A stretch of DNA of 64,000 nt from Candidatus Woesebacteria bacterium (GTDB taxonomy: Bacteria > Patescibacteriota > Saccharimonadia > Saccharimonadales > EFPC-124): assembly GCA_050115675.1 (NCBI GenBank), contig JASFQB010000002.1:4376-68375 (forward strand), written 5' to 3'. The notes under the pieces are model-generated. The model saw only the letters and a program-made list of their open reading frames with translations, was not told where the DNA came from and ran no database searches. Made by a program: the position numbers and the translations under genes. Positions within the stretch are counted from its first letter, which is position 1. Each line of letters starts with the position of its first letter. Of the stretch, positions 49,106-56,239 are shown one piece after another.

Positions 49106-49971
49106 TTAGATGTTGTCTACAATACTCACATCAATGACATCTGAAAAAACCATCAGCTCTGAACCGACTTTTGAGTTGTGATGAGCCGAGTATTTGAGGT
49201 CAAAAGTCCTGTACTGTCTGTCAGGGTAAAGGTCGAGAATGTCCTTTTCATTGTCATAGCTTAAAAGCCATCTTGCTTTGCTGTGGCTGTTTAGCGAATT
49301 TGCGAGCTTTTGGTGGTCTTTTAGCTTAAAAGCGTTCAAGTAAAGGTTTGCGCCCTTAACAAAGTAGGGTGGGTCAACATAGAAGAAGCTCTTTGGGTCT
49401 TTTGCATATCGCTCGATGACGTCTGCGCCGTCCTCGTTGAGTACAGTGATTCTATCACTACAAAGCCCTATGAGTCTGATTTTCTCAATAAGATTCTGCT
49501 TGTTATATCGTGCGTCAATTTTCCATTTGCCTAGTTGCTGTTTGCCGCCAATCGGACCGGCGTTCAAGATGCCAGAGCGATTAGTCCTATTTAGAAAGAA
49601 AGTAGAAAAACCAAGAGATAGTCTATCGGACGTATCGGCCGCTTTATAGATTTTTTTTGCCGCTCCCACTCCTTGACGGTTACGGGAGTGTTCGACACTC
49701 TCTCGACAAACTCTGCGTTATGTTCCTTTAGGGCAAGCCAAAATGAGTATATGGCTGGGTCATAGTCGTTAATGACAATAGAGTTCACTTTTTCTAGCAG
49801 CAGCAGAGATAAGGCCGCGCCTGCGCCCCCCGCGTATGGTTCAATGTAAACTACGTCTTTCCATTCGTGCTCTTTTATGACGGTATCGAAAAAAGCAAAG
49901 AGAGATGTCTTGCCGCCCGGATAGCGCAAAGGGGTAAATAGGTGCTTTCTATATGTTTTCGCTTGTATCAT
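49106..49971 (-). pseudogene. Dam-type (alpha-class, D12) N6-adenine DNA methyltransferase interrupted by a +1 frameshift in an A8 tract
   Basis: The N-part (49591..49971) has LRYPGGKTSL and EPYAGGAGAAL. The C-part (49106..49669) has FFLNRTNRSG and FYVDPPYF. Removing one A from the run at 49651-49658 gives the continuous reading ...KEWERQKKIYKAADTSDRLSLGF... Confidence 0.8.
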
Positions 49972-51259
49972 TTTTATTTTTTTGATGTGTTTTGGATACT
50001 ATAGCACCTATTATAATGGACATTGCTGTAGTTTGCTCAAAATTGGCCGAATTGGTATAGTTGTGCGCACCTGACTGTAAGAGTTGTATTAACTTTTGAT
50101 CGCTATCGACACTGCAATTTGAAAGTGTGGTTTTCTGGTCTTTTGTTAGGGTCTCTTTAGCATTGGCATAGTTATTGCTAATGTATGTATTGATACCGAT
50201 ACCGTCGCTATTCGTGGCCGACTCAACCAGCAATCGCAAAGACATTCTTATTAAAGCGGGGAACGTCGTAGAAAGTGTATCTTTTTCTTGTATATAGTAA
50301 TCGTGCAAAGATAAAATATCTCTATAAATATCATTGACTTCTCCATTCGCAAGCGATGGCATGTTGTCGAGAAAGAAAGTTAGCGTTTTCTTATTTGTGC
50401 GCGGTGTCTTTCTTTGCTTCGGAGTATCGTCCGTAGACTCGTTCTGCGGTGCTTCAATGTTTAGCGGTTCTAGAGAGTCATTATTGGTCGTCGATTTTAG
50501 CGGTGTATCAGAGAAATTGTCTAGCAATGGCTGCTTGAGCAAACCCCTATTGTTCCTAGTAGATATCTTTTTATTTTCAATAAGGCTGCGGATATTTTCC
50601 AATAGTTGCAAGCTCTCTTCAACTGAGTAGGGCGTTTCAATTTCACCCGTGTCGCTTACGAGAAAGCCTATTTCTCGTAAGTTTTTGGCATTTAACACCT
50701 CGTCTTTCACAAAGAGCTTATTCATTGATTTATGGTTGGCTATGTATCCGCCGGTTTGCTCATTTAGTCTTACAAATAGTGATTTCTCTTTACCTCTGTG
50801 CTTATAGGCAAAATAATCACGCTCTAGCTGACCCCATGAGCCGTTAGTACTGTGCTTGCGTTCTATATTCGTCAGTGCTGTTTCTTGGTCACATACGTTA
50901 CATGGTATCTCGGCCAAATCTTTCAGTTCCTTTGGCTCATAGCCAATCGGCAAACGCCCAGATATTTCTGTGTATAGCTGTGGATTCTGTAGGTACTTTA
51001 GGACGGCGACGCGCCTATTGCCATCATAGACCACAGGCTTATCATCCACATACACTACAGTTGGTAGTTCGCTGAGGTCGTAGTGTGCCCCCATTTCAGT
51101 TACGAGCTTATCCAAATTCCATGCTTTTGAGTTTTCATCAATAGCATGTCTGATAATATCTAGGTCCGTCGCGCTCGTATCAATGGGATCGCGCGGATTC
51201 TCTGTCCATAAACATAAATCTGCTACTTTTATACTTTGTATATCTTGAACCGCTGCCAC
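49949..51259 (-). CDS. ParB/Srx-like N-terminal domain protein (436 aa) translationally coupled to the Dam gene
   Basis: ENPRDPID ... VYDGNRRVAVLKYL matches the ParB-like nuclease/NTPase fold motifs (DGxxR). The remaining ~330 aa are unrecognised. Its 3' end overlaps the methylase start by 23 nt. Confidence 0.65.
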   Translation of the reverse strand: MAAVQDIQSIKVADLCLWTENPRDPIDTSATDLDIIRHAIDENSKAWNLDKLVTEMGAHYDLSELPTVVYVDDKPVVYDGNRRVAVLKYLQNPQLYTEISGRLPIGYEPKELKDLAEIPCNVCDQETALTNIERKHSTNGSWGQLERDYFAYKHRGKEKSLFVRLNEQTGGYIANHKSMNKLFVKDEVLNAKNLREIGFLVSDTGEIETPYSVEESLQLLENIRSLIENKKISTRNNRGLLKQPLLDNFSDTPLKSTTNNDSLEPLNIEAPQNESTDDTPKQRKTPRTNKKTLTFFLDNMPSLANGEVNDIYRDILSLHDYYIQEKDTLSTTFPALIRMSLRLLVESATNSDGIGINTYISNNYANAKETLTKDQKTTLSNCSVDSDQKLIQLLQSGAHNYTNSANFEQTTAMSIIIGAIVSKTHQKNKNDTSENI

Positions 51260-52237
51260 TTTTCAACTCCTATTCAGCAATCTCTCGGTCTAAAGCTCTA
51301 GTAAAACCAGATGACCCGCTTTCAATCGCACATAAATATCCTTTGGGACTATTATACAATACTTTCTGGCGGTCGGCGTTTTTCTGAATGCGAGTATACC
51401 TCTATGTCGTTGCGGATATTGCTTGTAATCGTCGTGTTCGCTGCCTCGAGTATAGCAATAGGAGCTGTAGTGTCTCATCAGTCTAAAGTAGTACAGGCAA
51501 TACTTGGCTCACAATTCGCTCATCATCAAAGAGTTTGCGGAATATGCGGAGCGGCAAATCCCTCATCTCTTCGGTGGACTCTTCGGGGTTTGTGCCAAAA
51601 TTGACATTTGGTAGGTCGGGTATGTCGTGTCGCCATTTTTGCAAGTTTGCCATGATATCGAGCCAGATATTCGGATAGCCGAGTTGATTGAACGTGTCTT
51701 ATCCGTATGACGCTAACAGGCGCACATCCCACGGCTATTGCAGCTCTACTAACTATGTCTGGTAAAAGTTCCTGTTCTTGATAAAGATTGGGTTGATTAA
51801 GTAGAAAAAGCCCCATGTGACTTTATTGCAGTAAATATCGACAAGTGCTTAAAGTTTATTCTCAAAACTAGTAATCTGCTCGCGCCTTTTCGTCAAGTTA
51901 TGGTCGCCGCGCACTTCTTTCTCAATAAATAACACCCTGCCGTCTTTGCTTGTAAGTGTTACGCCAGTTTTGATAAGTCCGATATCGACCAGTAAGCCAA
52001 GGGTGACGCGCGGTGCTTTTGTTTCAGGCTTGCCCGGAATCGGTGCTACATCAGGCCGTGTTGTTCTGTCGGGTCGTCGCTTCTTAGTGGGCCATGCTAA
52101 GGATTTCCCAAAACTACATCTTCTCTGATTTGCAGGTTTTGTGCGAACGGTTGGACGAATTAGGCATTGAAGCGATTATGGACACGAATTGCCGTCAGTA
52201 AGGACTGAGTTACTTATTGTCGGTTCAAGTTGAACAG

Positions 52238-52549
52238 TTAGTTTTGATCGCCTTCTTCTCCGCTAAGGCTTTCTTGCATATATCTATACACTATGGAGAT
52301 AATCGCGCGCACGTCATCATTCGCATTCTTAAAAACCAAGTTAGTGTATGCGATGTCTCTGAACTCGCGTATAGGATCCGATATTAGCGCATGTATAAAT
52401 GATTGAGTAGCGCCCGATACTCCATCAAAATCTATAACCACTTCCTTCCCTTTGGAAAGTGCTGGCATAATTTGATCTATCCTAATCCGCTTTGCGATGT
52501 CTTTATTTTCTGCAAAACTACTACCAATTATTTGTCGCATTTTTATCAT
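52238..52549 (-). CDS. STAS-like domain protein (DUF4325)
   Basis: 103 aa. VVIDFDGVSGATQSFIHALISDPIREF is the characteristic DUF4325/STAS-like core. Overlaps the upstream ATPase gene by 4 nt. Confidence 0.7.
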   Translation of the reverse strand: MIKMRQIIGSSFAENKDIAKRIRIDQIMPALSKGKEVVIDFDGVSGATQSFIHALISDPIREFRDIAYTNLVFKNANDDVRAIISIVYRYMQESLSGEEGDQN

Positions 52550-53514
52550 ATAAACCTCGGCTCGTGATATTTAGCTCTTTTACGTTCCCGAATTGCTTTG
52601 TCGTATACCTCGCCAATCCTGGTTAGTAATTGCTTTAATTCTGGCGTTTCATCCAACGTAATGTCAACAGCAACTAACGTACCTTCAAATTTTGGAGCGT
52701 TTTCCGCCTCGCTGTGTGGGTCTTGGGCTGGGTCTGCGAATAAGCGTGGGGTACGTTTAATCCTCTTGTCGTGTTTAAGCAATGTATACTCTGCGCTTCC
52801 GCTATAAATCACAAAGTAATTACGCGTTATTTTGGCAATAGATTTAATAAAGAATAAGCCTGCACCAGCATTCTCACTCGATCCTCCCTCACGACGTGTC
52901 GTGCCCGTAATGCCAGGAGTTAACGCCAATTTAAGGGCATCGGCATCAGTTTTGGGATGCCAATACGTTTGCAGACTCTTCCACAGCCCAATGCCTGTGT
53001 CGCATATTCCAATACTAACGCGGTTAGTCTTTCGATAGTACTGTGCCGCTACTATAGCACCCCCAGGGGCGTTGGCATGTTCAAGTACATTGCGCACTAG
53101 TTCACCTATTACATACTTTACGATAGTTGCGTTTTCTTCCGAGAGATGCATGAGCGGGATCATATCGGCAATAAAACGCGATTGGTCTTCTGCGGTACGA
53201 ATTACTGATAATGGCACAAATCGCCCAGCAGGCTCTTTTTCTCGATATTCAAAAGGCGACTTAGTCTTTGTTAGTGCGTAAAGACCCATTCTATCCAGGT
53301 ATCGACCAGTATCAGGCACTTCTCCAGTGATTGCACTGTTTGTTTTGCCTACTTTAATGGCGAGAGCCGCTGCAAGAACAAGATTGGCAGGATGAACAGT
53401 AATCCACTTATCATGTGTGGATATTTCGAGTTTCTGAGGCTCAGAAAAATCCAATGACTCAACAAAGCTACGGAAATTACGCAGATTACCTTGATTATTA
53501 AAATGAATTCTCAT
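52546..53514 (-). CDS. GHKL-superfamily ATPase (RsbW/SpoIIAB-like HATPase_c fold) with a unique N-terminal region
   Basis: N-box IGELVRNVLEHA, G1 ICDTGIGL, G2/ATP-lid TGTTRREGGSSENAGAGLFFI. Confidence 0.75.
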   Translation of the reverse strand: MRIHFNNQGNLRNFRSFVESLDFSEPQKLEISTHDKWITVHPANLVLAAALAIKVGKTNSAITGEVPDTGRYLDRMGLYALTKTKSPFEYREKEPAGRFVPLSVIRTAEDQSRFIADMIPLMHLSEENATIVKYVIGELVRNVLEHANAPGGAIVAAQYYRKTNRVSIGICDTGIGLWKSLQTYWHPKTDADALKLALTPGITGTTRREGGSSENAGAGLFFIKSIAKITRNYFVIYSGSAEYTLLKHDKRIKRTPRLFADPAQDPHSEAENAPKFEGTLVAVDITLDETPELKQLLTRIGEVYDKAIRERKRAKYHEPRFI

Positions 53515-53520
53515 ATATCT

Positions 53521-53549
53521 ATCTTATCCGTAGAACGTTTTATTGTCAA
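53521..53549 (-). promoter_or_regulatory. consensus-like promoter TTGACA-17-TAAGAT placed 6 nt before the ATG (leaderless-type) of the GHKL/STAS operon
   Basis: Minus strand reads TTGACAataaaacgttctacggaTAAGATagatatATG. Confidence 0.5.
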
Positions 53550-53594
53550 TACACGCCCTACGGGTGTATATGAGTCCGTAGGGCGTGTATTTTT
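53549..53594. terminator. 15-bp perfect-stem hairpin between tRNA-Phe and the GHKL operon
   Basis: atacacgccctacgg / ccgtagggcgtgtat with flanking A and T runs. One arm abuts the -35 box. Confidence 0.55.
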
Positions 53595-53700
53595 AAGTGT
53601 ACGCTCCACGGGTACAGAAACTTACGAGAAACAGAGTACCAGTTTCTCGCATCAAACCTTACCAGACTCGAACTAAAAATAACAGAGGTAATGACAATAC

Positions 53701-53735
53701 AAAAAGCTCCAGACGATAAAATCTGGAGCTTTTTG
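53701..53735. terminator. hairpin terminator just downstream of tRNA-Phe
   Basis: aaaaagctccaga / tctggagcttttt. Confidence 0.6.
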
Positions 53736-53753
53736 TTATCTGTTGGGTAATTT

Positions 53754-53829
53754 TGGTGGCGACTCCCAGACTCGAACTGGGGACACAAGGCTCTTCAGGC
53801 CTCTGCTCTACCAACTGAGCTAAATCGCC
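53754..53829 (-). tRNA. tRNA-Phe (anticodon GAA)
   Basis: Reverse complement GGCGATTTAGCTCAGTTGGTAGAGCAGAGGCCTGAAGAGCCTTGTGTCCCCAGTTCGAGTCTGGGAGTCGCCACCA folds as a canonical cloverleaf. Confidence 0.9.
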
Positions 53830-54648: not shown

Positions 54649-54725
54649 GCGGGTGTAGCTCAGTTGTTTAGAGCGCATCCTTGCCAAGGATGAGGCCGCG
54701 GGTTAGAGTCCCGCCACCCGCACCA
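54649..54725 (+). tRNA. tRNA-Gly (anticodon GCC) with non-canonical D-loop and T-loop
   Basis: Acceptor GCGGGTG/CACCCGC, anticodon loop TTGCCAA, encoded CCA. The D-loop is AGTTGTTTA (no GG) and the T-loop is TTAGAGT (A at position 56). Confidence 0.8.
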
Positions 54726-56239
54726 AATGAGACACTTTTACATTGATAATCCAGAAAACAGCGGTAGAAAGGGCTAATTTGGGTGTTGGAATAACCCGGA
54801 TAGCTCCACTGCAATCCTTTTGGAAATATCGAACACATCAAGACGCGCTTCTGTTCTAGAGGCGCGTTTTGATATGTTTCGACTAAATTCGTAAACTTGG
54901 TCTCGATGAATTTTGTGATAGCTTCAAGATTATATTTTTCAATCGTCGCTTCGTTTTTGGCGGCTTGAATAGCGGTTATTTTTTCTTCTAATATTTTGTT
55001 TTGCTCCTTAAAGATGTCGTCGGAATAGACGCCGTTTAGATTCTTTTCTATAAGTGCTTGGCGCGTTTCGTAGATTTTCTTTAGCTCGACGTCGGCTTGG
55101 TCGCGTTTTTGCTTTAAAGCGCCCGTGCGTTGGTAGTATGCGCGTCGCAAGAAGGCGTTAATCATTTGGGCTGTCTCTGGCTTAAGTGTGACGCTTTTTA
55201 GAAGTTTTGCTGTCTCCGGCTCTATTTCGGCGAGCGGCACATTTGACTTAGCGCCGCAGCGTTTGATGCAAAAGTAATAGCCGTAAGTTTGCGCCTTGCC
55301 CTTGCTCCATGCGGCGGTGAATGATTGCCCACAGCGGCCACACCGCACAATGCGGCGTAGAGGGAAATCGGGATTATTGTGTGTACGTTTAGCGAGTACA
55401 ACTGGCGTGTTGAAATTGCGCCCATCTAAAATTGCCTGGACGCGATAGAAAGTTTCTTCGGTAATCATTGGCGTGTGCTGACCCTGTACTTCAAGGCCGT
55501 ATTTTTTTGAAATGACTTTTCCGGTATAGAATTTGTTGCGGAAGATACGGCTCATGGTCTGGCGGCGAAGCCGAGTTTCTTTATGGCCTTTTCGTTTTTC
55601 CCGGATTCCTTGCTCGTCAAGGTATTTAGCCATCTCGCTTAGACTTTTTGTGCCCGTTTCCATAAGTTCCCAGGCTGCCTTTAGTGCGCTAAACGTTTCC
55701 GGGTCTTTTACTGCGTAGCTATTTTGCCGTAGGTAGCCAAGCGGCAGGCTGCCGTTGTGTAAACCGCTCATAAAGCGGGCGCGCATGCCATTTCGCGAGC
55801 GTTCGCCGCGTACGTCGTTGTCCATTTGGGCAAAACCAGCTAGCATTGTTTCAATAAAACGCTCGGTAGGAGTATCGCCGGTTGGCTCGCTGGCAGAAAT
55901 AAGTGTGATGTTGCATTCGGCAAGTTTTTTGCGGATAGCAAGGTAGTCTGCAGTCTGTCGCGAAATACGGTCAAGGCGATAAACAATTACCGCGCCGACT
56001 TCGTTTTTGTGTTTGCGGCAGTAGTCGAGCATTTCAATCAGCGTTGGCCGCTCTCGGATAGTCTTGGCTGATCGTCCCTCTTCTCGGAATATCTCGCTAA
56101 TTTGCAGACCACGGCGTTCAGCCTCTTTGCGGCAAATATCGGCCTGCGTATCAAGCGAGTAGTTGTCTACTTGCTCCTCAGTTGAAACACGAAGATACAC
56201 AACGGCGATATGCTTATCTGGTTGCGCACCACCCGCCAT
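54668..56239 (-). CDS. large serine recombinase (integrase)
   Basis: Resolvase catalytic domain (VVYLRVSTEEQ ... YRLDRISR), recombinase domain and a zinc-ribbon region (RCGRCGQ...CIKRCG) with a coiled coil. The last 19 codons are antisense to tRNA-Gly. Confidence 0.9.
   Translation of the reverse strand: MAGGAQPDKHIAVVYLRVSTEEQVDNYSLDTQADICRKEAERRGLQISEIFREEGRSAKTIRERPTLIEMLDYCRKHKNEVGAVIVYRLDRISRQTADYLAIRKKLAECNITLISASEPTGDTPTERFIETMLAGFAQMDNDVRGERSRNGMRARFMSGLHNGSLPLGYLRQNSYAVKDPETFSALKAAWELMETGTKSLSEMAKYLDEQGIREKRKGHKETRLRRQTMSRIFRNKFYTGKVISKKYGLEVQGQHTPMITEETFYRVQAILDGRNFNTPVVLAKRTHNNPDFPLRRIVRCGRCGQSFTAAWSKGKAQTYGYYFCIKRCGAKSNVPLAEIEPETAKLLKSVTLKPETAQMINAFLRRAYYQRTGALKQKRDQADVELKKIYETRQALIEKNLNGVYSDDIFKEQNKILEEKITAIQAAKNEATIEKYNLEAITKFIETKFTNLVETYQNAPLEQKRVLMCSIFPKGLQWSYPGYSNTQISPFYRCFLDYQCKSVSFGAGGGTLTRGLILGKDAL

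What the first reader, a model, noticed from the sequence alone, without database searches (positions are those of the whole stretch)
52238..53549. Orphan GHKL-ATPase + STAS-like (DUF4325) two-gene operon in a tRNA-Phe island: candidate partner-switching or defence module
A 322-aa protein carries clear Bergerat-fold motifs (ELVRNVLEHA, DTGIG, GGSSENAGAGLFFI) and a unique ~120-aa N-terminal region. It overlaps a 103-aa STAS-like DUF4325 protein by 4 nt. The pairing resembles RsbW/RsbV or SpoIIAB/SpoIIAA (kinase/anti-sigma plus STAS antagonist), but there is no sigma factor or phosphatase nearby. The operon has its own TTGACA-17-TAAGAT leaderless-type promoter and is insulated by two hairpins. 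It sits among methylases, a ParB-like gene and pseudogenes, which is typical defence-island context. I do not recognise this pair as a named, characterised defence system.
Basis: partly seen in the sequence, partly recalled or inferred. Interest (0 to 1): 0.7.

Follow-up and report, generated by a model that had tools for sequence, protein, structure and literature searches.

The report
VapK/VapS-like kinase–STAS pair lacking a toxin

Summary
A 322-aa GHKL protein (K, 52546-53514, minus strand) overlaps a 103-aa DUF4325 protein (S, 52238-52549) by 4 nt. A TTGACA-17-TAAGAT promoter ends 6 nt before the ATG.

The pair is not unclassifiable. The "unique" N-terminus of K is a STAS-like domain. The K family profile matches VapK (hhalign 99.0 %, E 4e-18) and CapK (98.1 %), both ssDNA-activated kinases (Chambers et al., EMBO J 2026). 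VapS is itself DUF4325. S keeps invariant Thr48 and Ser50 where VapS is phosphorylated.

Two defining features of the named systems are absent:
- there is no VapC/PIN gene in any of 91 loci;
- there is no HTH on either protein.

The clade has its own features:
- a basic C-terminal helix on K ending in Arg-Phe;
- a dyad-symmetric element around the -35 box, kept symmetric by compensatory changes;
- leaderless starts;
- flanking target duplications;
- a distribution centred on Patescibacteria, plus MAGs labelled DPANN archaea.

Flanking genes vary from restriction-modification genes to housekeeping genes. I read it as a new two-gene variant of the CapK/VapK kinase–substrate family, probably a self-contained toxin–antitoxin-like or stress/defence module. 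Its effector is not identified.

The parts
52546..53514 (-). K: 322-aa STAS-GHKL kinase-like protein (VapK/CapK homologue), stop codon included
   Evidence: ORF. Sub-threshold HATPase_c_2 hit. AF2 model has pLDDT 88.3 and pTM 0.88. hhalign against VapK gives 99.0 %, E 3.8e-18 over 245 columns. hhalign against CapK gives 98.1 %, E 7.9e-14.
53149..53514 (-). K residues 1-122: N-terminal STAS-like domain (beta-alpha repeats). In CapK and VapK the equivalent domain forms, with the GHKL domain, the predicted ssDNA-binding groove.
   Evidence: Secondary structure E2-5, H14-19, E29-33, H42-55, E60-62, H68-75, E99-105, H108-122. Foldseek match to RsbV 6m36_C: 76 columns, rmsd 2.1, probability 0.97 (I infer that this match covers the N-terminal domain, the aligned range is not reported). 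The hhalign match to VapK starts at residue 19. The shared motif YLDRMGL corresponds to YLNRLGF in CapK. P42 is found in 67/69 sequences and W37 is aromatic in 43/69.
52645..53148 (-). K residues 123-290: Bergerat-fold (GHKL) ATP-binding/kinase domain
   Evidence: N box E138/N142/H146, G1 box D172-G174-G176, G2 box G217-G219-L220, and G278-T279 are invariant or nearly so. Foldseek matches SpoIIAB 1til, 1tid and 1th8 at TM 0.60-0.68.
52549..52644 (-). K residues 291-322: clade-specific C-terminal helix with a basic end (RERKRAKYH) and the terminal motif R-F-I
   Evidence: Helix 291-316 in the model. F321 is found in 66/69 sequences and R/K320 in 53/69. The [RKQN]-F C-terminus is present in 38 of 55 full-length 50 %-identity representatives. 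VapK lacks this segment: it ends at residue 302, soon after the shared FEGT strand.
52238..52549 (-). S: 103-aa STAS-like DUF4325 protein (VapS homologue without the VapC-inhibiting C-terminal helix), stop codon included
   Evidence: Pfam DUF4325 at 52.6 bits. VapS scores 62.7 bits on the same model. hhalign of the S family against VapS gives 88.7 %, E 2.5e-6, covering VapS residues 2-89. AF2 model has pLDDT 93.0. Top Foldseek hits are STAS domains, but E-values are 0.04 or worse.
52400..52408 (-). Codons for Thr48-Gln49-Ser50 of S: candidate phospho-acceptor at the N-terminus of STAS helix alpha-2
   Evidence: T48, Q49 and S50 are invariant in 51 diverse sequences; T48 and Q49 are 120/120 and S50 119/120 in close homologues. 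Helix alpha-2 starts at residue 49. VapS Ser48 aligns to Q49, one residue from each candidate. Fusion proteins keep Thr at position 48 and Ser or Thr at position 50.
53521..53549 (-). Sigma-70-type promoter TTGACA-17-TAAGAT. The -10 box ends 6 nt before the ATG, so the transcript is predicted to be leaderless.
   Evidence: The same arrangement appears upstream of K in most bacterial relatives.
53527..53565 (-). Proximal dyad-symmetric element: ACCCGTAGGGCGT / loop containing the -35 box / ACGTTCTACGGA. The right arm abuts the -10 box.
   Evidence: In 32 of 46 non-redundant loci an inverted repeat with arms of at least 11 nt is centred 31-36 nt upstream of the ATG, against a background of 0.23-0.27 such repeats per 220 nt. 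Across 29 loci, 12 of 14 arm positions show compensatory double changes, 87.7 % of cells are paired, and 0/500 shuffles reach the observed covariation.
53576..53613 (-). Distal copy of the dyad element: ACCCGTGGAGCGT / 14-nt loop / ACGCCCTACGG, with no -35 box in the loop
   Evidence: About a dozen other loci carry a second copy centred roughly 72-102 nt upstream of the ATG. Among matches with at most one mismatch, the half-site occurs only here in the 64-kb window.
53699..53736 (.). Perfect 15-bp hairpin between tRNA-Phe and the operon. It is probably the tRNA-Phe terminator and so also insulates the operon.
   Evidence: tRNA-Phe lies at 53754-53829 on the minus strand.

Best explanation
The operon is a two-gene member of the CapK/VapK kinase-substrate family.

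Shown:
- K is a STAS-GHKL protein homologous over both domains to VapK and CapK. All ATP-binding motifs are intact.
- S is a DUF4325 STAS protein homologous to VapS. It has invariant Thr48 and Ser50 at the start of helix alpha-2.
- The two genes are strictly coupled and are sometimes fused into one protein.
- No PIN toxin gene and no HTH domain is present.

Inferred by homology:
- K is a Ser/Thr kinase that phosphorylates S on Thr48 or Ser50.
- K is probably switched on by a nucleic-acid signal such as ssDNA, bound between its STAS and GHKL domains.

Inferred from anatomy:
- The pair is an autonomous, horizontally mobile cassette. It carries its own promoter for a probably leaderless transcript.
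- A dyad element wraps the -35 box. This suggests that transcription is gated at that element, either by the K-S complex or through DNA structure.

Most likely function (least certain): a self-contained toxin-antitoxin-like stress or abortive-infection switch. In this model unphosphorylated S holds K, or a trans target, in check, and phosphorylation releases it. The effector would be K itself, through its clade-specific basic C-terminal helix or off-target phosphorylation, or phospho-S, instead of VapC.
For: Homology:
- K family against VapK: 99.0 %, E 3.8e-18. Against CapK: 98.1 %.
- VapS belongs to DUF4325. S family against VapS: 88.7 %.

Folds.

Catalytic and acceptor residues are invariant.

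Gene coupling:
- S follows K in 88 of 91 loci, most often with a 4-nt overlap.
- Natural K-S fusions exist.

Autonomy:
- No neighbouring gene cluster is shared by more than 15 of 91 loci.
- The 38 close same-strand downstream genes fall into 23 unrelated clusters.
- None of the ten small downstream genes scanned is a PIN protein.

Mobility:
- Identity is 74-90 % between proteins from MAGs named as different Patescibacteria lineages: Woese-, Moran-, Nomura-, Pace- and Gottesmanbacteria and Saccharibacteria.
- The pair is also found in MAGs labelled DPANN archaea.
- Some assemblies carry two copies, and L075 holds two pairs 2.8 kb apart.
- Direct repeats of 17-149 nt flank the cassette in 9 of 46 non-redundant loci. 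In L091 the repeat is a 73-nt stretch that looks like a whole tRNA gene.

Promoter-embedded dyad with compensatory changes.

Precedent: VapKSC is a phosphorylation-controlled toxin-antitoxin system that protects against phage Bas42, and CapK is activated by ssDNA (PMC13373217).

Sensor-module use: a K-like N-terminal module of 220 residues is embedded in a PADLOC 'DrmA' model (E 3.7e-18).
Against: - No effector was identified.
- Neither toxicity nor kinase activity can be tested with these tools.
- S lacks the C-terminal helix with which VapS blocks VapC.
- GHKL anti-sigma-type kinases are normally specific for their STAS partner, so K acting as a toxin is speculative.
- No DNA-binding domain is detectable in K or S.
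- No protein columns co-vary with the class of dyad element. This argues against a co-evolving operator-repressor pair and for a structural (hairpin) role of the dyad.
- Neighbourhoods are only partly defence-like.
- Only 3 close relatives were found among 2.9 million viral contigs.
- The residue equivalent to the ssDNA-stacking aromatic (CapK W68, VapK F54) could not be mapped with confidence.
Confidence: 0.6

Rival explanations
1. CapKS-like transcriptional controller. The K-S pair senses DNA damage and de-represses neighbouring genes (here the PD-Lambda-5-like pair, elsewhere hsdR or others) through the dyad elements.
For: - K is homologous to CapK.
- CapS binds palindromes in its own promoter and in the downstream promoter (PMC13373217).
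- Dyad elements overlap the K promoter.
- In L022 a copy that includes the -35 and -10 boxes lies just after S and faces the next gene. L021, L045, L053 and L067 also have a downstream copy of the element.
- In L002 and L046 the pair sits between hsdS and hsdR.
Against: - S has no wHTH domain and no detectable similarity to CapS (probability 0.1 %). K has no N-terminal HTH.
- Only 5 of 46 non-redundant loci carry a downstream element.
- In the window the half-site occurs nowhere except upstream of K, and about 1 kb of non-coding DNA separates S from the next gene.
- Downstream genes are unrelated to each other and often housekeeping genes such as mraZ, RNase H or a sugar transferase.
Confidence: 0.15
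2. Pure addiction or selfish cassette. The pair is a toxin-antitoxin-like pair that only stabilises itself and the DNA it sits in, with no role in phage defence.
For: - The cassette is small, has its own promoter with an embedded dyad, and is mobile with flanking duplications.
- It is inserted between housekeeping genes, for example pth and mraZ.
- It is rare on viral contigs.
- Some assemblies carry several copies.
Against: - The nearest characterised relative does protect against phage (PMC13373217).
- A subset of loci is embedded in restriction-modification operons or lies next to abortive-infection genes.
- The homologous kinases respond to ssDNA, a signal linked to infection and DNA damage.
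Confidence: 0.15
3. Classical partner-switching module (RsbW/RsbV-like). K is an anti-sigma factor for a sigma factor encoded elsewhere, and S is its antagonist.
For: - HATPase_c_2 is the best Pfam hit.
- SpoIIAB and RsbV are among the closest solved folds.
- JGI annotates relatives as 'anti-sigma regulatory factor'.
Against: - The Pfam hit is below threshold.
- No sigma factor or PP2C phosphatase was found nearby.
- The pair is horizontally mobile and its context varies.
- It is present in MAGs labelled DPANN archaea behind TATA-box-like sequences. Archaea have no sigma factors (established knowledge).
- K carries an extra N-terminal STAS domain and a C-terminal helix that RsbW and SpoIIAB lack.
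Confidence: 0.05
4. Decayed VapKSC. The pair is a remnant of a three-gene system that lost vapC and is no longer functional.
For: About 1 kb without a credible gene follows S in the window.
Against: - 88 of 91 loci have both genes intact, and none of the downstream neighbours examined is a PIN protein.
- Both proteins are strongly conserved and have clade-specific additions.
- VapK is only a peripheral relative, with 25 % identity to its best cluster representative.
Confidence: 0.05

Closest known systems
VapKSC toxin-antitoxin/anti-phage system (VapK kinase, VapS STAS antitoxin, VapC PIN toxin; Chambers et al., EMBO J 2026, PMC13373217)
   Same: - K has the VapK architecture: STAS plus GHKL domains with no HTH, of similar length. 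The profile match is 99.0 %.
- S and VapS both belong to Pfam DUF4325 and keep a conserved hydroxyl residue at the start of helix alpha-2.
- The gene order is K then S.
   Different: - No vapC/PIN gene was found among the neighbours examined in 91 loci.
- S lacks VapS residues 94-116, the helix that blocks VapC.
- K has an extra basic C-terminal helix ending in R-F.
- Sequence identity to VapK is only about 19 %.
- The distribution is mainly Patescibacteria plus MAGs labelled DPANN archaea.
CapK-CapS, 'controller of adjacent pathways' (same paper)
   Same: - K is homologous to the STAS and GHKL domains of CapK: 98.1 %, E 7.9e-14, with a shared YL(D/N)R(M/L)G motif.
- Palindromic elements lie at the module's own promoter.
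- Some loci lie beside restriction-modification genes.
   Different: - K has no N-terminal HTH.
- S has no wHTH and no detectable similarity to CapS.
- There is no conserved downstream immune operon.
SpoIIAB-SpoIIAA and RsbW-RsbV partner-switching pairs
   Same: - The GHKL Ser-kinase fold is shared (TM 0.60-0.68 to SpoIIAB).
- The partner is a single-domain STAS protein with a hydroxyl residue at the N-terminus of helix alpha-2.
   Different: - There is no sigma factor and no phosphatase.
- K has additional STAS and C-terminal segments.
- The pair is a mobile cassette and is found in archaeal MAGs.
- The Pfam HATPase_c_2 score is below the gathering threshold.
Type II/VII toxin-antitoxin cassettes
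   Same: - Two overlapping small genes.
- A palindrome embedded in the promoter.
- Horizontal mobility, several copies per genome, and insertion into unrelated loci.
   Different: - No toxin fold is recognisable.
- Neither toxicity nor neutralisation has been tested.
- Fused K-S proteins exist.

Membership tests
GHKL (Bergerat-fold) ATPase/kinase superfamily | N box (E-x3-N), G1 box (D-x-G-x-G), G2 box (G-x-x-G-x-G) and an alpha/beta sandwich fold | tested here: met
   N142, D172, G174, G176, G217 and G219 are invariant; E138 is found in 68/69 sequences. Foldseek hits are topoisomerase VI-B, SpoIIAB, GyrB and histidine kinases.
Anti-sigma-factor Ser kinases (Pfam HATPase_c_2; RsbW/SpoIIAB) | Profile score above the Pfam gathering threshold | tested here: not met
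   23.8 bits against a cut-off of 27.4.
Anti-sigma-factor Ser kinases (RsbW/SpoIIAB) | A cognate sigma factor (and usually a PP2C phosphatase) in the operon or regulon | tested here: not met
   None in the window region scanned and none among the conserved neighbours. The pair also occurs in MAGs labelled as archaea.
Pfam DUF4325 (STAS-like) | Profile score above the gathering threshold | tested here: met
   52.6 bits against a cut-off of 23, residues 19-80.
VapKSC | VapK-type kinase: STAS plus GHKL domains without an HTH | tested here: met
   hhalign 99.0 %, E 3.8e-18, 245 columns spanning both domains. The model shows both domains.
VapKSC | VapS-type STAS protein with a conserved Ser/Thr phospho-acceptor | tested here: met
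   Both proteins are DUF4325. hhalign gives 88.7 %. T48 and S50 are invariant and lie within one residue of the position aligned to VapS S48. The exact acceptor is not resolved.
VapKSC | VapS C-terminal helix (residues 94-116) that inhibits VapC | tested here: not met
   The alignment stops at VapS residue 89. After helix alpha-3, S has only a short acidic, variable tail.
VapKSC | VapC (PIN nuclease) gene in the operon | tested here: not met
   - No PIN match among the ORFs scanned between 49106 and 57960.
- None among ten small downstream neighbours.
- PIN is not among the 25 most frequent Pfam families of 150 representative neighbours; only those 25 of 194 matched families are listed, so this scan does not by itself exclude a single PIN neighbour.
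- No third gene is conserved.
VapKSC / CapKS | Kinase activated by single-stranded DNA | not testable with these tools
   Only homology of the STAS-GHKL module is available. W37 is a candidate for the stacking aromatic residue, but the mapping is uncertain.
CapKS | N-terminal HTH on the kinase and C-terminal wHTH on the STAS protein | tested here: not met
   K starts directly with STAS strand beta-1 at residue 2, and the CapK match begins at CapK residue 88. S is 103 aa, STAS domain only, with no similarity to CapS.
CapKS | Located immediately upstream of an immune operon whose promoter carries the same palindrome | tested here: inconclusive
   A downstream copy of the element is present in 5 of 46 non-redundant loci. 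The downstream genes are unrelated and often housekeeping genes. No downstream copy exists in the window.
Toxin-antitoxin module | One product is toxic and the other neutralises it | not testable with these tools
   Only circumstantial features are available: overlap, promoter palindrome, mobility and copy number.

The most novel reading that the evidence does not exclude
A stand-alone, cross-domain mobile kinase-STAS cassette in which the GHKL kinase itself (or phosphorylated S) is the growth-arresting effector. This would be a two-gene, nuclease-free abortive-infection or addiction switch that ultra-small symbionts (Patescibacteria, and possibly DPANN archaea) exchange as a unit. The cassette carries a hairpin-forming promoter element that may couple its expression, or its mobility, to the single-stranded or supercoiled state of the DNA.
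Probability: 0.3. Interest if true: 0.75.

Novelty: new variant of a known kind. Interest (0 to 1): 0.55.

Why it matters
The CapK/VapK family was described only in 2026, and only in forms that have an obvious output: a wHTH repressor or a PIN toxin. This clade has thousands of members but neither output, so one of two things must be true. Either the kinase-STAS pair is sufficient on its own, or it acts on a target nobody has yet looked for.

The clade is concentrated in Patescibacteria, with some members in MAGs labelled DPANN archaea. Few PADLOC defence families beyond restriction-modification were detected among the neighbours examined here.

The conserved dyad around the -35 box offers a concrete experimental handle. 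The bacterial and archaeal-type promoter versions of the same cassette offer another.

Tried and rejected
- PDB sequence searches. Single-sequence searches with K and S found nothing meaningful. The VapS and CapS entries (9Z7O, 9Z71) do not appear in either fold search, whose library stops at 8 April 2026. I therefore took the VapK, VapS, CapK and CapS sequences from the paper's supplementary files.
- K N-terminus against S. No sequence similarity was found between them. The STAS assignment of the K N-terminus rests on the predicted fold only.
- Complex modelling. Modelling a K-linker-S fusion was prepared and then abandoned. The tool returns no coordinates, and it refuses sequences that are not on its record.
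- DNA-binding determinant. I looked for protein columns that track the class of dyad element. Only one weak column turned up in K and none in S.
- PIN remnant. I searched the 1-kb spacer after S and the small genes downstream of S in relatives. The result was negative.
- Counting type I R-M contexts. The regular expressions I used were too strict: they found only 3 loci. Pfam confirmed HsdS and HsdR for L046, and the precomputed Pfam table shows an HsdR-type gene downstream in L002.
- Rfam. Only the three tRNAs were found between 48000 and 58000.
- Base composition. It does not set the pair apart from its surroundings.
- Defence enrichment. I could not compute a per-locus enrichment statistic, because the batch family scans report only family counts.
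Full report
**What is there**

The window carries two overlapping minus-strand ORFs. K runs from 52546 to 53514 and encodes 322 aa. S runs from 52238 to 52549 and encodes 103 aa. They share 4 nt (ATGA).

- S is a clear Pfam DUF4325 ("STAS-like") protein: 52.6 bits against a cut-off of 23.
- K hits HATPase_c_2 only below threshold: 23.8 bits against 27.4.
- A TTGACA-17-TAAGAT promoter ends 6 nt before the ATG, so a leaderless transcript is plausible.
- An identical protein is named as coming from a Candidatus Woesebacteria MAG, so the host is a CPR/Patescibacteria bacterium.

**Folds**

- *K.* An AlphaFold2 model built on 69 sequences is confident: pLDDT 88.3, pTM 0.88. It has three parts:
  - an N-terminal beta-alpha domain (residues 1-122);
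  - a Bergerat-fold domain (about 123-290);
  - a long C-terminal helix (291-316).

  In Foldseek, SpoIIAB gives the best target-normalised TM-scores, 0.60-0.68. RsbV chain 6m36_C matches separately over 76 columns at rmsd 2.1 and probability 0.97. I take that match to be the N-terminal domain. The "unique" N-terminus is therefore a STAS-like domain.
- *S.* The S model has pLDDT 93.0. It is a small beta-alpha fold whose top structural matches are all STAS domains: SULTR4;1, RsbS, prestin and SpoIIAA. Their E-values are weak, 0.04 or worse.

**The family and its coupling**

- K has 2,891 relatives at E ≤ 1e-3 in the 90 %-identity database. The top 120 are 73-100 % identical, almost all are 312-336 aa long, and the named sources span several Patescibacteria lineages.
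- In the 50 %-identity library there are 2,024 clusters at E ≤ 1e-3 and 77 at E ≤ 1e-30.
- A scan of one genome per species found 253 relatives. The best 80 are mostly Saccharibacteria. A few come from MAGs labelled Woesearchaeota, Micrarchaeota, Nanoarchaeota or Thermoplasmatales.
- In 88 of 91 fetched loci K is immediately followed by an S homologue. The overlap is most often 4 nt and is 10 nt in one clade.
- Five longer relatives are natural K-S fusions.
- No neighbouring gene cluster is shared by more than 15 of 91 loci, and those shared clusters reflect synteny among close relatives.
- The 38 close same-strand downstream genes fall into 23 unrelated clusters.

**Link to the literature**

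A full-text search led to Chambers et al., EMBO J 2026 (PMC13373217). That paper describes two systems.

- *CapK-CapS.* CapK has HTH, STAS and GHKL domains. CapS has a STAS domain and a wHTH. ssDNA activates CapK, which phosphorylates CapS on Ser54 and so de-represses adjacent immune operons.
- *VapKSC.* VapK has STAS and GHKL domains. VapS is a STAS antitoxin phosphorylated on Ser48. VapC is a PIN toxin. The system protects against phage Bas42.

I read the VapK, VapS, CapK and CapS sequences from the paper's supplementary files and compared them with the two families found here.

| Comparison | Result |
|---|---|
| VapS against Pfam DUF4325 | 62.7 bits |
| K family against VapK | 99.0 %, E 3.8e-18, 245 columns over both domains |
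| K family against CapK | 98.1 %, E 7.9e-14 |
| S family against VapS | 88.7 %, E 2.5e-6 |
| S family against CapS | no similarity (0.1 %) |

An older PIN-domain survey had already noted a VapC subgroup "transcriptionally coupled to DUF4325 genes".

In S, Thr48, Gln49 and Ser50 are invariant and sit at the start of helix alpha-2. VapS Ser48 aligns to Gln49, so either Thr48 or Ser50 could be the acceptor. I could not decide which.

**What does not fit the named systems**

- *No PIN gene.* None was found in the window ORFs scanned. None was found among ten small downstream neighbours. PIN is also not among the 25 most frequent Pfam families of 150 representative neighbours.
- *S is shorter than VapS.* It lacks the C-terminal helix with which VapS blocks VapC.
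- *No HTH.* Neither protein has one.
- *K has an addition.* It carries a basic C-terminal helix that ends in Arg-Phe. F321 is found in 66 of 69 sequences, and the motif is present in 38 of 55 full-length cluster representatives. VapK lacks this segment.
- *VapK is only a peripheral relative.* It is 25 % identical to its best cluster representative.

**Promoter element**

Upstream of K the arrangement is conserved. An inverted repeat brackets the -35 box. Its right arm ends next to the -10 box, and the ATG follows 6-9 nt later.

- *Frequency.* In 32 of 46 non-redundant loci, a repeat with arms of at least 11 nt is centred 31-36 nt upstream of the ATG. The background is 0.23-0.27 such repeats per 220 nt.
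- *Compensatory change.* Across 29 loci, 12 of 14 arm positions show compensatory double changes and 87.7 % of cells are paired. Slid controls give 23-46 % paired. None of 500 shuffles reaches the observed covariation.
- *Extra copies.* About a dozen loci, including the window (53576-53613), carry a second copy further upstream. Five loci have a copy just after S.
- *Second subfamily.* This group includes the loci labelled archaeal. It instead has two copies of ACCGGGAATCCCGGT, which flank either a -35 box or a TTTATAAAT box.
- *Specificity to this site.* In the window, the half-site occurs with at most one mismatch only at this site.
- *Interpretation.* I found no protein columns that track the class of element. 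Selection therefore seems to act on the symmetry or base-pairing itself. The element could be an operator, a hairpin or cruciform that gates or insulates the promoter, or a recombination site. Its fixed register with the promoter favours a role in transcription.

The perfect hairpin at 53699-53736 is most simply the tRNA-Phe terminator.

**Mobility and context**

Direct repeats of target sequence flank the cassette in 9 of 46 non-redundant loci:

| Locus | Repeat length |
|---|---|
| L018 | 149 nt |
| L091 | 73 nt (looks like a whole tRNA gene) |
| L022 | 68 nt |
| L017 | 55 nt |
| L067 | 51 nt |
| L053 | 39 nt |
| L048, L052, L086 | 17-19 nt |

Some assemblies carry two copies (for example CALIZZ01: L034 and L054), and L075 has two pairs 2.8 kb apart.

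Neighbours are mixed:

- Defence-like neighbours:
  - hsdS-[K-S]-hsdR in L002 and L046;
  - AbiEii in L006;
  - Fic and a diversity-generating retroelement in L003;
  - PD-Lambda-5-like genes and a FokI-type R-M system in the window.
- Housekeeping neighbours:
  - pth-[K-S]-mraZ-rsmH in a 13-locus group of Saccharibacteria MAGs;
  - obg, Hsp70, PolA and tRNA synthetases elsewhere.

Only 3 close relatives were found on 2.9 million viral contigs. Distant K-like genes occur on plasmids and phages, for example Gordonia phage Phishy gp32 near its integrase.

**Interpretation**

The homology-level statement is well supported: this is a VapK/VapS-type kinase-substrate pair of the CapK/VapK family. 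Two further steps are inferred from homology only:

- K phosphorylates S on Thr48 or Ser50.
- K responds to a nucleic-acid signal.

The output is unknown. I favour a self-contained TA-like stress or abortive-infection switch, for three reasons:

- The cassette is autonomous, has a dyad embedded in its own promoter, is mobile and has no conserved partner.
- Its nearest characterised relative is a phosphorylation-gated TA defence system.
- Fused versions exist, as is known for single-chain toxin-antitoxin defence proteins such as CapRel (my own knowledge, not tested here).

The rivals are listed separately:

- a CapKS-like regulator of neighbouring genes;
- a purely selfish addiction cassette;
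- sigma-factor partner switching;
- a decayed VapKSC.

The presence of the pair in MAGs labelled archaeal, together with its mobility, argues strongly against the sigma-factor reading.

**Verdict**

The finding is a new two-gene variant of a recently described kind. Interest is moderate to good, because the effector is missing and the clade is large and concentrated in ultra-small symbionts.

Noticed in passing
window 53527-53613 (minus strand); loci L001-L091 upstream of K: Two tandem ~40-nt dyad elements lie upstream of K, and the proximal one encloses the -35 box. The arrangement is conserved in position in 32 of 46 non-redundant relatives. Arm sequences differ between loci but stay complementary: 12 of 14 positions show compensatory changes. 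A second subfamily uses two ACCGGGAATCCCGGT palindromes around a -35 box or a TATA-like box.
   Followed up: yes
L018, L091, L022, L017, L067, L053, L048, L052, L086 (flanks of the K-S pair): Direct repeats of 17-149 nt flank the ~1.3-kb K-S cassette. In L091 the repeat is a 73-nt stretch that looks like a whole tRNA gene, and in L022 it is 68 nt including the promoter element. This looks like insertion with target duplication, yet the cassette carries no recombinase. No such repeat was found in the window itself.
   Followed up: partly
window 49106-51259 (minus strand): A PD-Lambda-5-like pair lies here. The 436-aa protein matches PD-Lambda-5_A models (E down to 1.7e-14). The D12 adenine methylase (PD-Lambda-5_B, E 1.8e-66) is split into two overlapping ORFs, 49591-49971 and 49106-49669. 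It is therefore probably frameshifted or a pseudogene.
   Followed up: partly
window 54649-56239: A large serine recombinase (523 aa; Resolvase, Recombinase and Zn_ribbon_recom domains) has a 3' end that overlaps tRNA-Gly (54649-54725) by 58 nt. Beyond it, according to the gene table of the identical contig L001, lie DUF7249, DUF3768, a FokI-type R-M system with two methylases, and T4SS-like genes (DUF8128/DUF87/TraG). Together these look like an integrated element at the tRNA cluster.
   Followed up: partly
window 51260-52237: About 1 kb between S and the PD-Lambda-5_A-like gene has no credible ORF. All ORFs are under 100 aa and have no Pfam hit below E 0.005. No copy of the dyad half-site is present.
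   Followed up: partly
K residues 26-246 against PADLOC model PDLC02567: The STAS-GHKL module of K matches positions 31-248 of a 1,750-position PADLOC 'DrmA' (DISARM helicase) model at E 3.7e-18. Some DISARM-type helicases therefore appear to carry this module at their N-terminus.
   Followed up: no
L070, L075, L076, L081-L083, L090 (MAGs labelled DPANN or other archaea): Copies in archaeal-labelled MAGs have a TTTATAAAT-like box about 27 nt upstream of the ATG instead of -35 and -10 boxes, while keeping the flanking CCGGGAATCCCGG palindromes. L075 carries two K-S pairs 2.8 kb apart.
   Followed up: partly
L095 (Gordonia phage Phishy, gene 32); L092 (A. baumannii plasmid p2OC074); Francisella prophage KIRK (PMC7924643): Distant K-like genes sit in accessory positions of mobile elements:
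- between the tail genes and the integrase/immunity cassette of a temperate Gordonia phage;
- next to BrnTA on a 6.8-kb Acinetobacter plasmid.

In the Francisella prophage, a 112-aa DUF4325 gene follows a 293-aa hypothetical gene near the CI repressor and the integrase.
   Followed up: no
L002 and L046: The K-S cassette is inserted between hsdS and hsdR of type I restriction-modification operons. Pfam confirms both flanking genes in L046. In L002 the downstream gene is HsdR-type in the precomputed Pfam table, and the upstream gene was recognised only by a motif match.
   Followed up: partly
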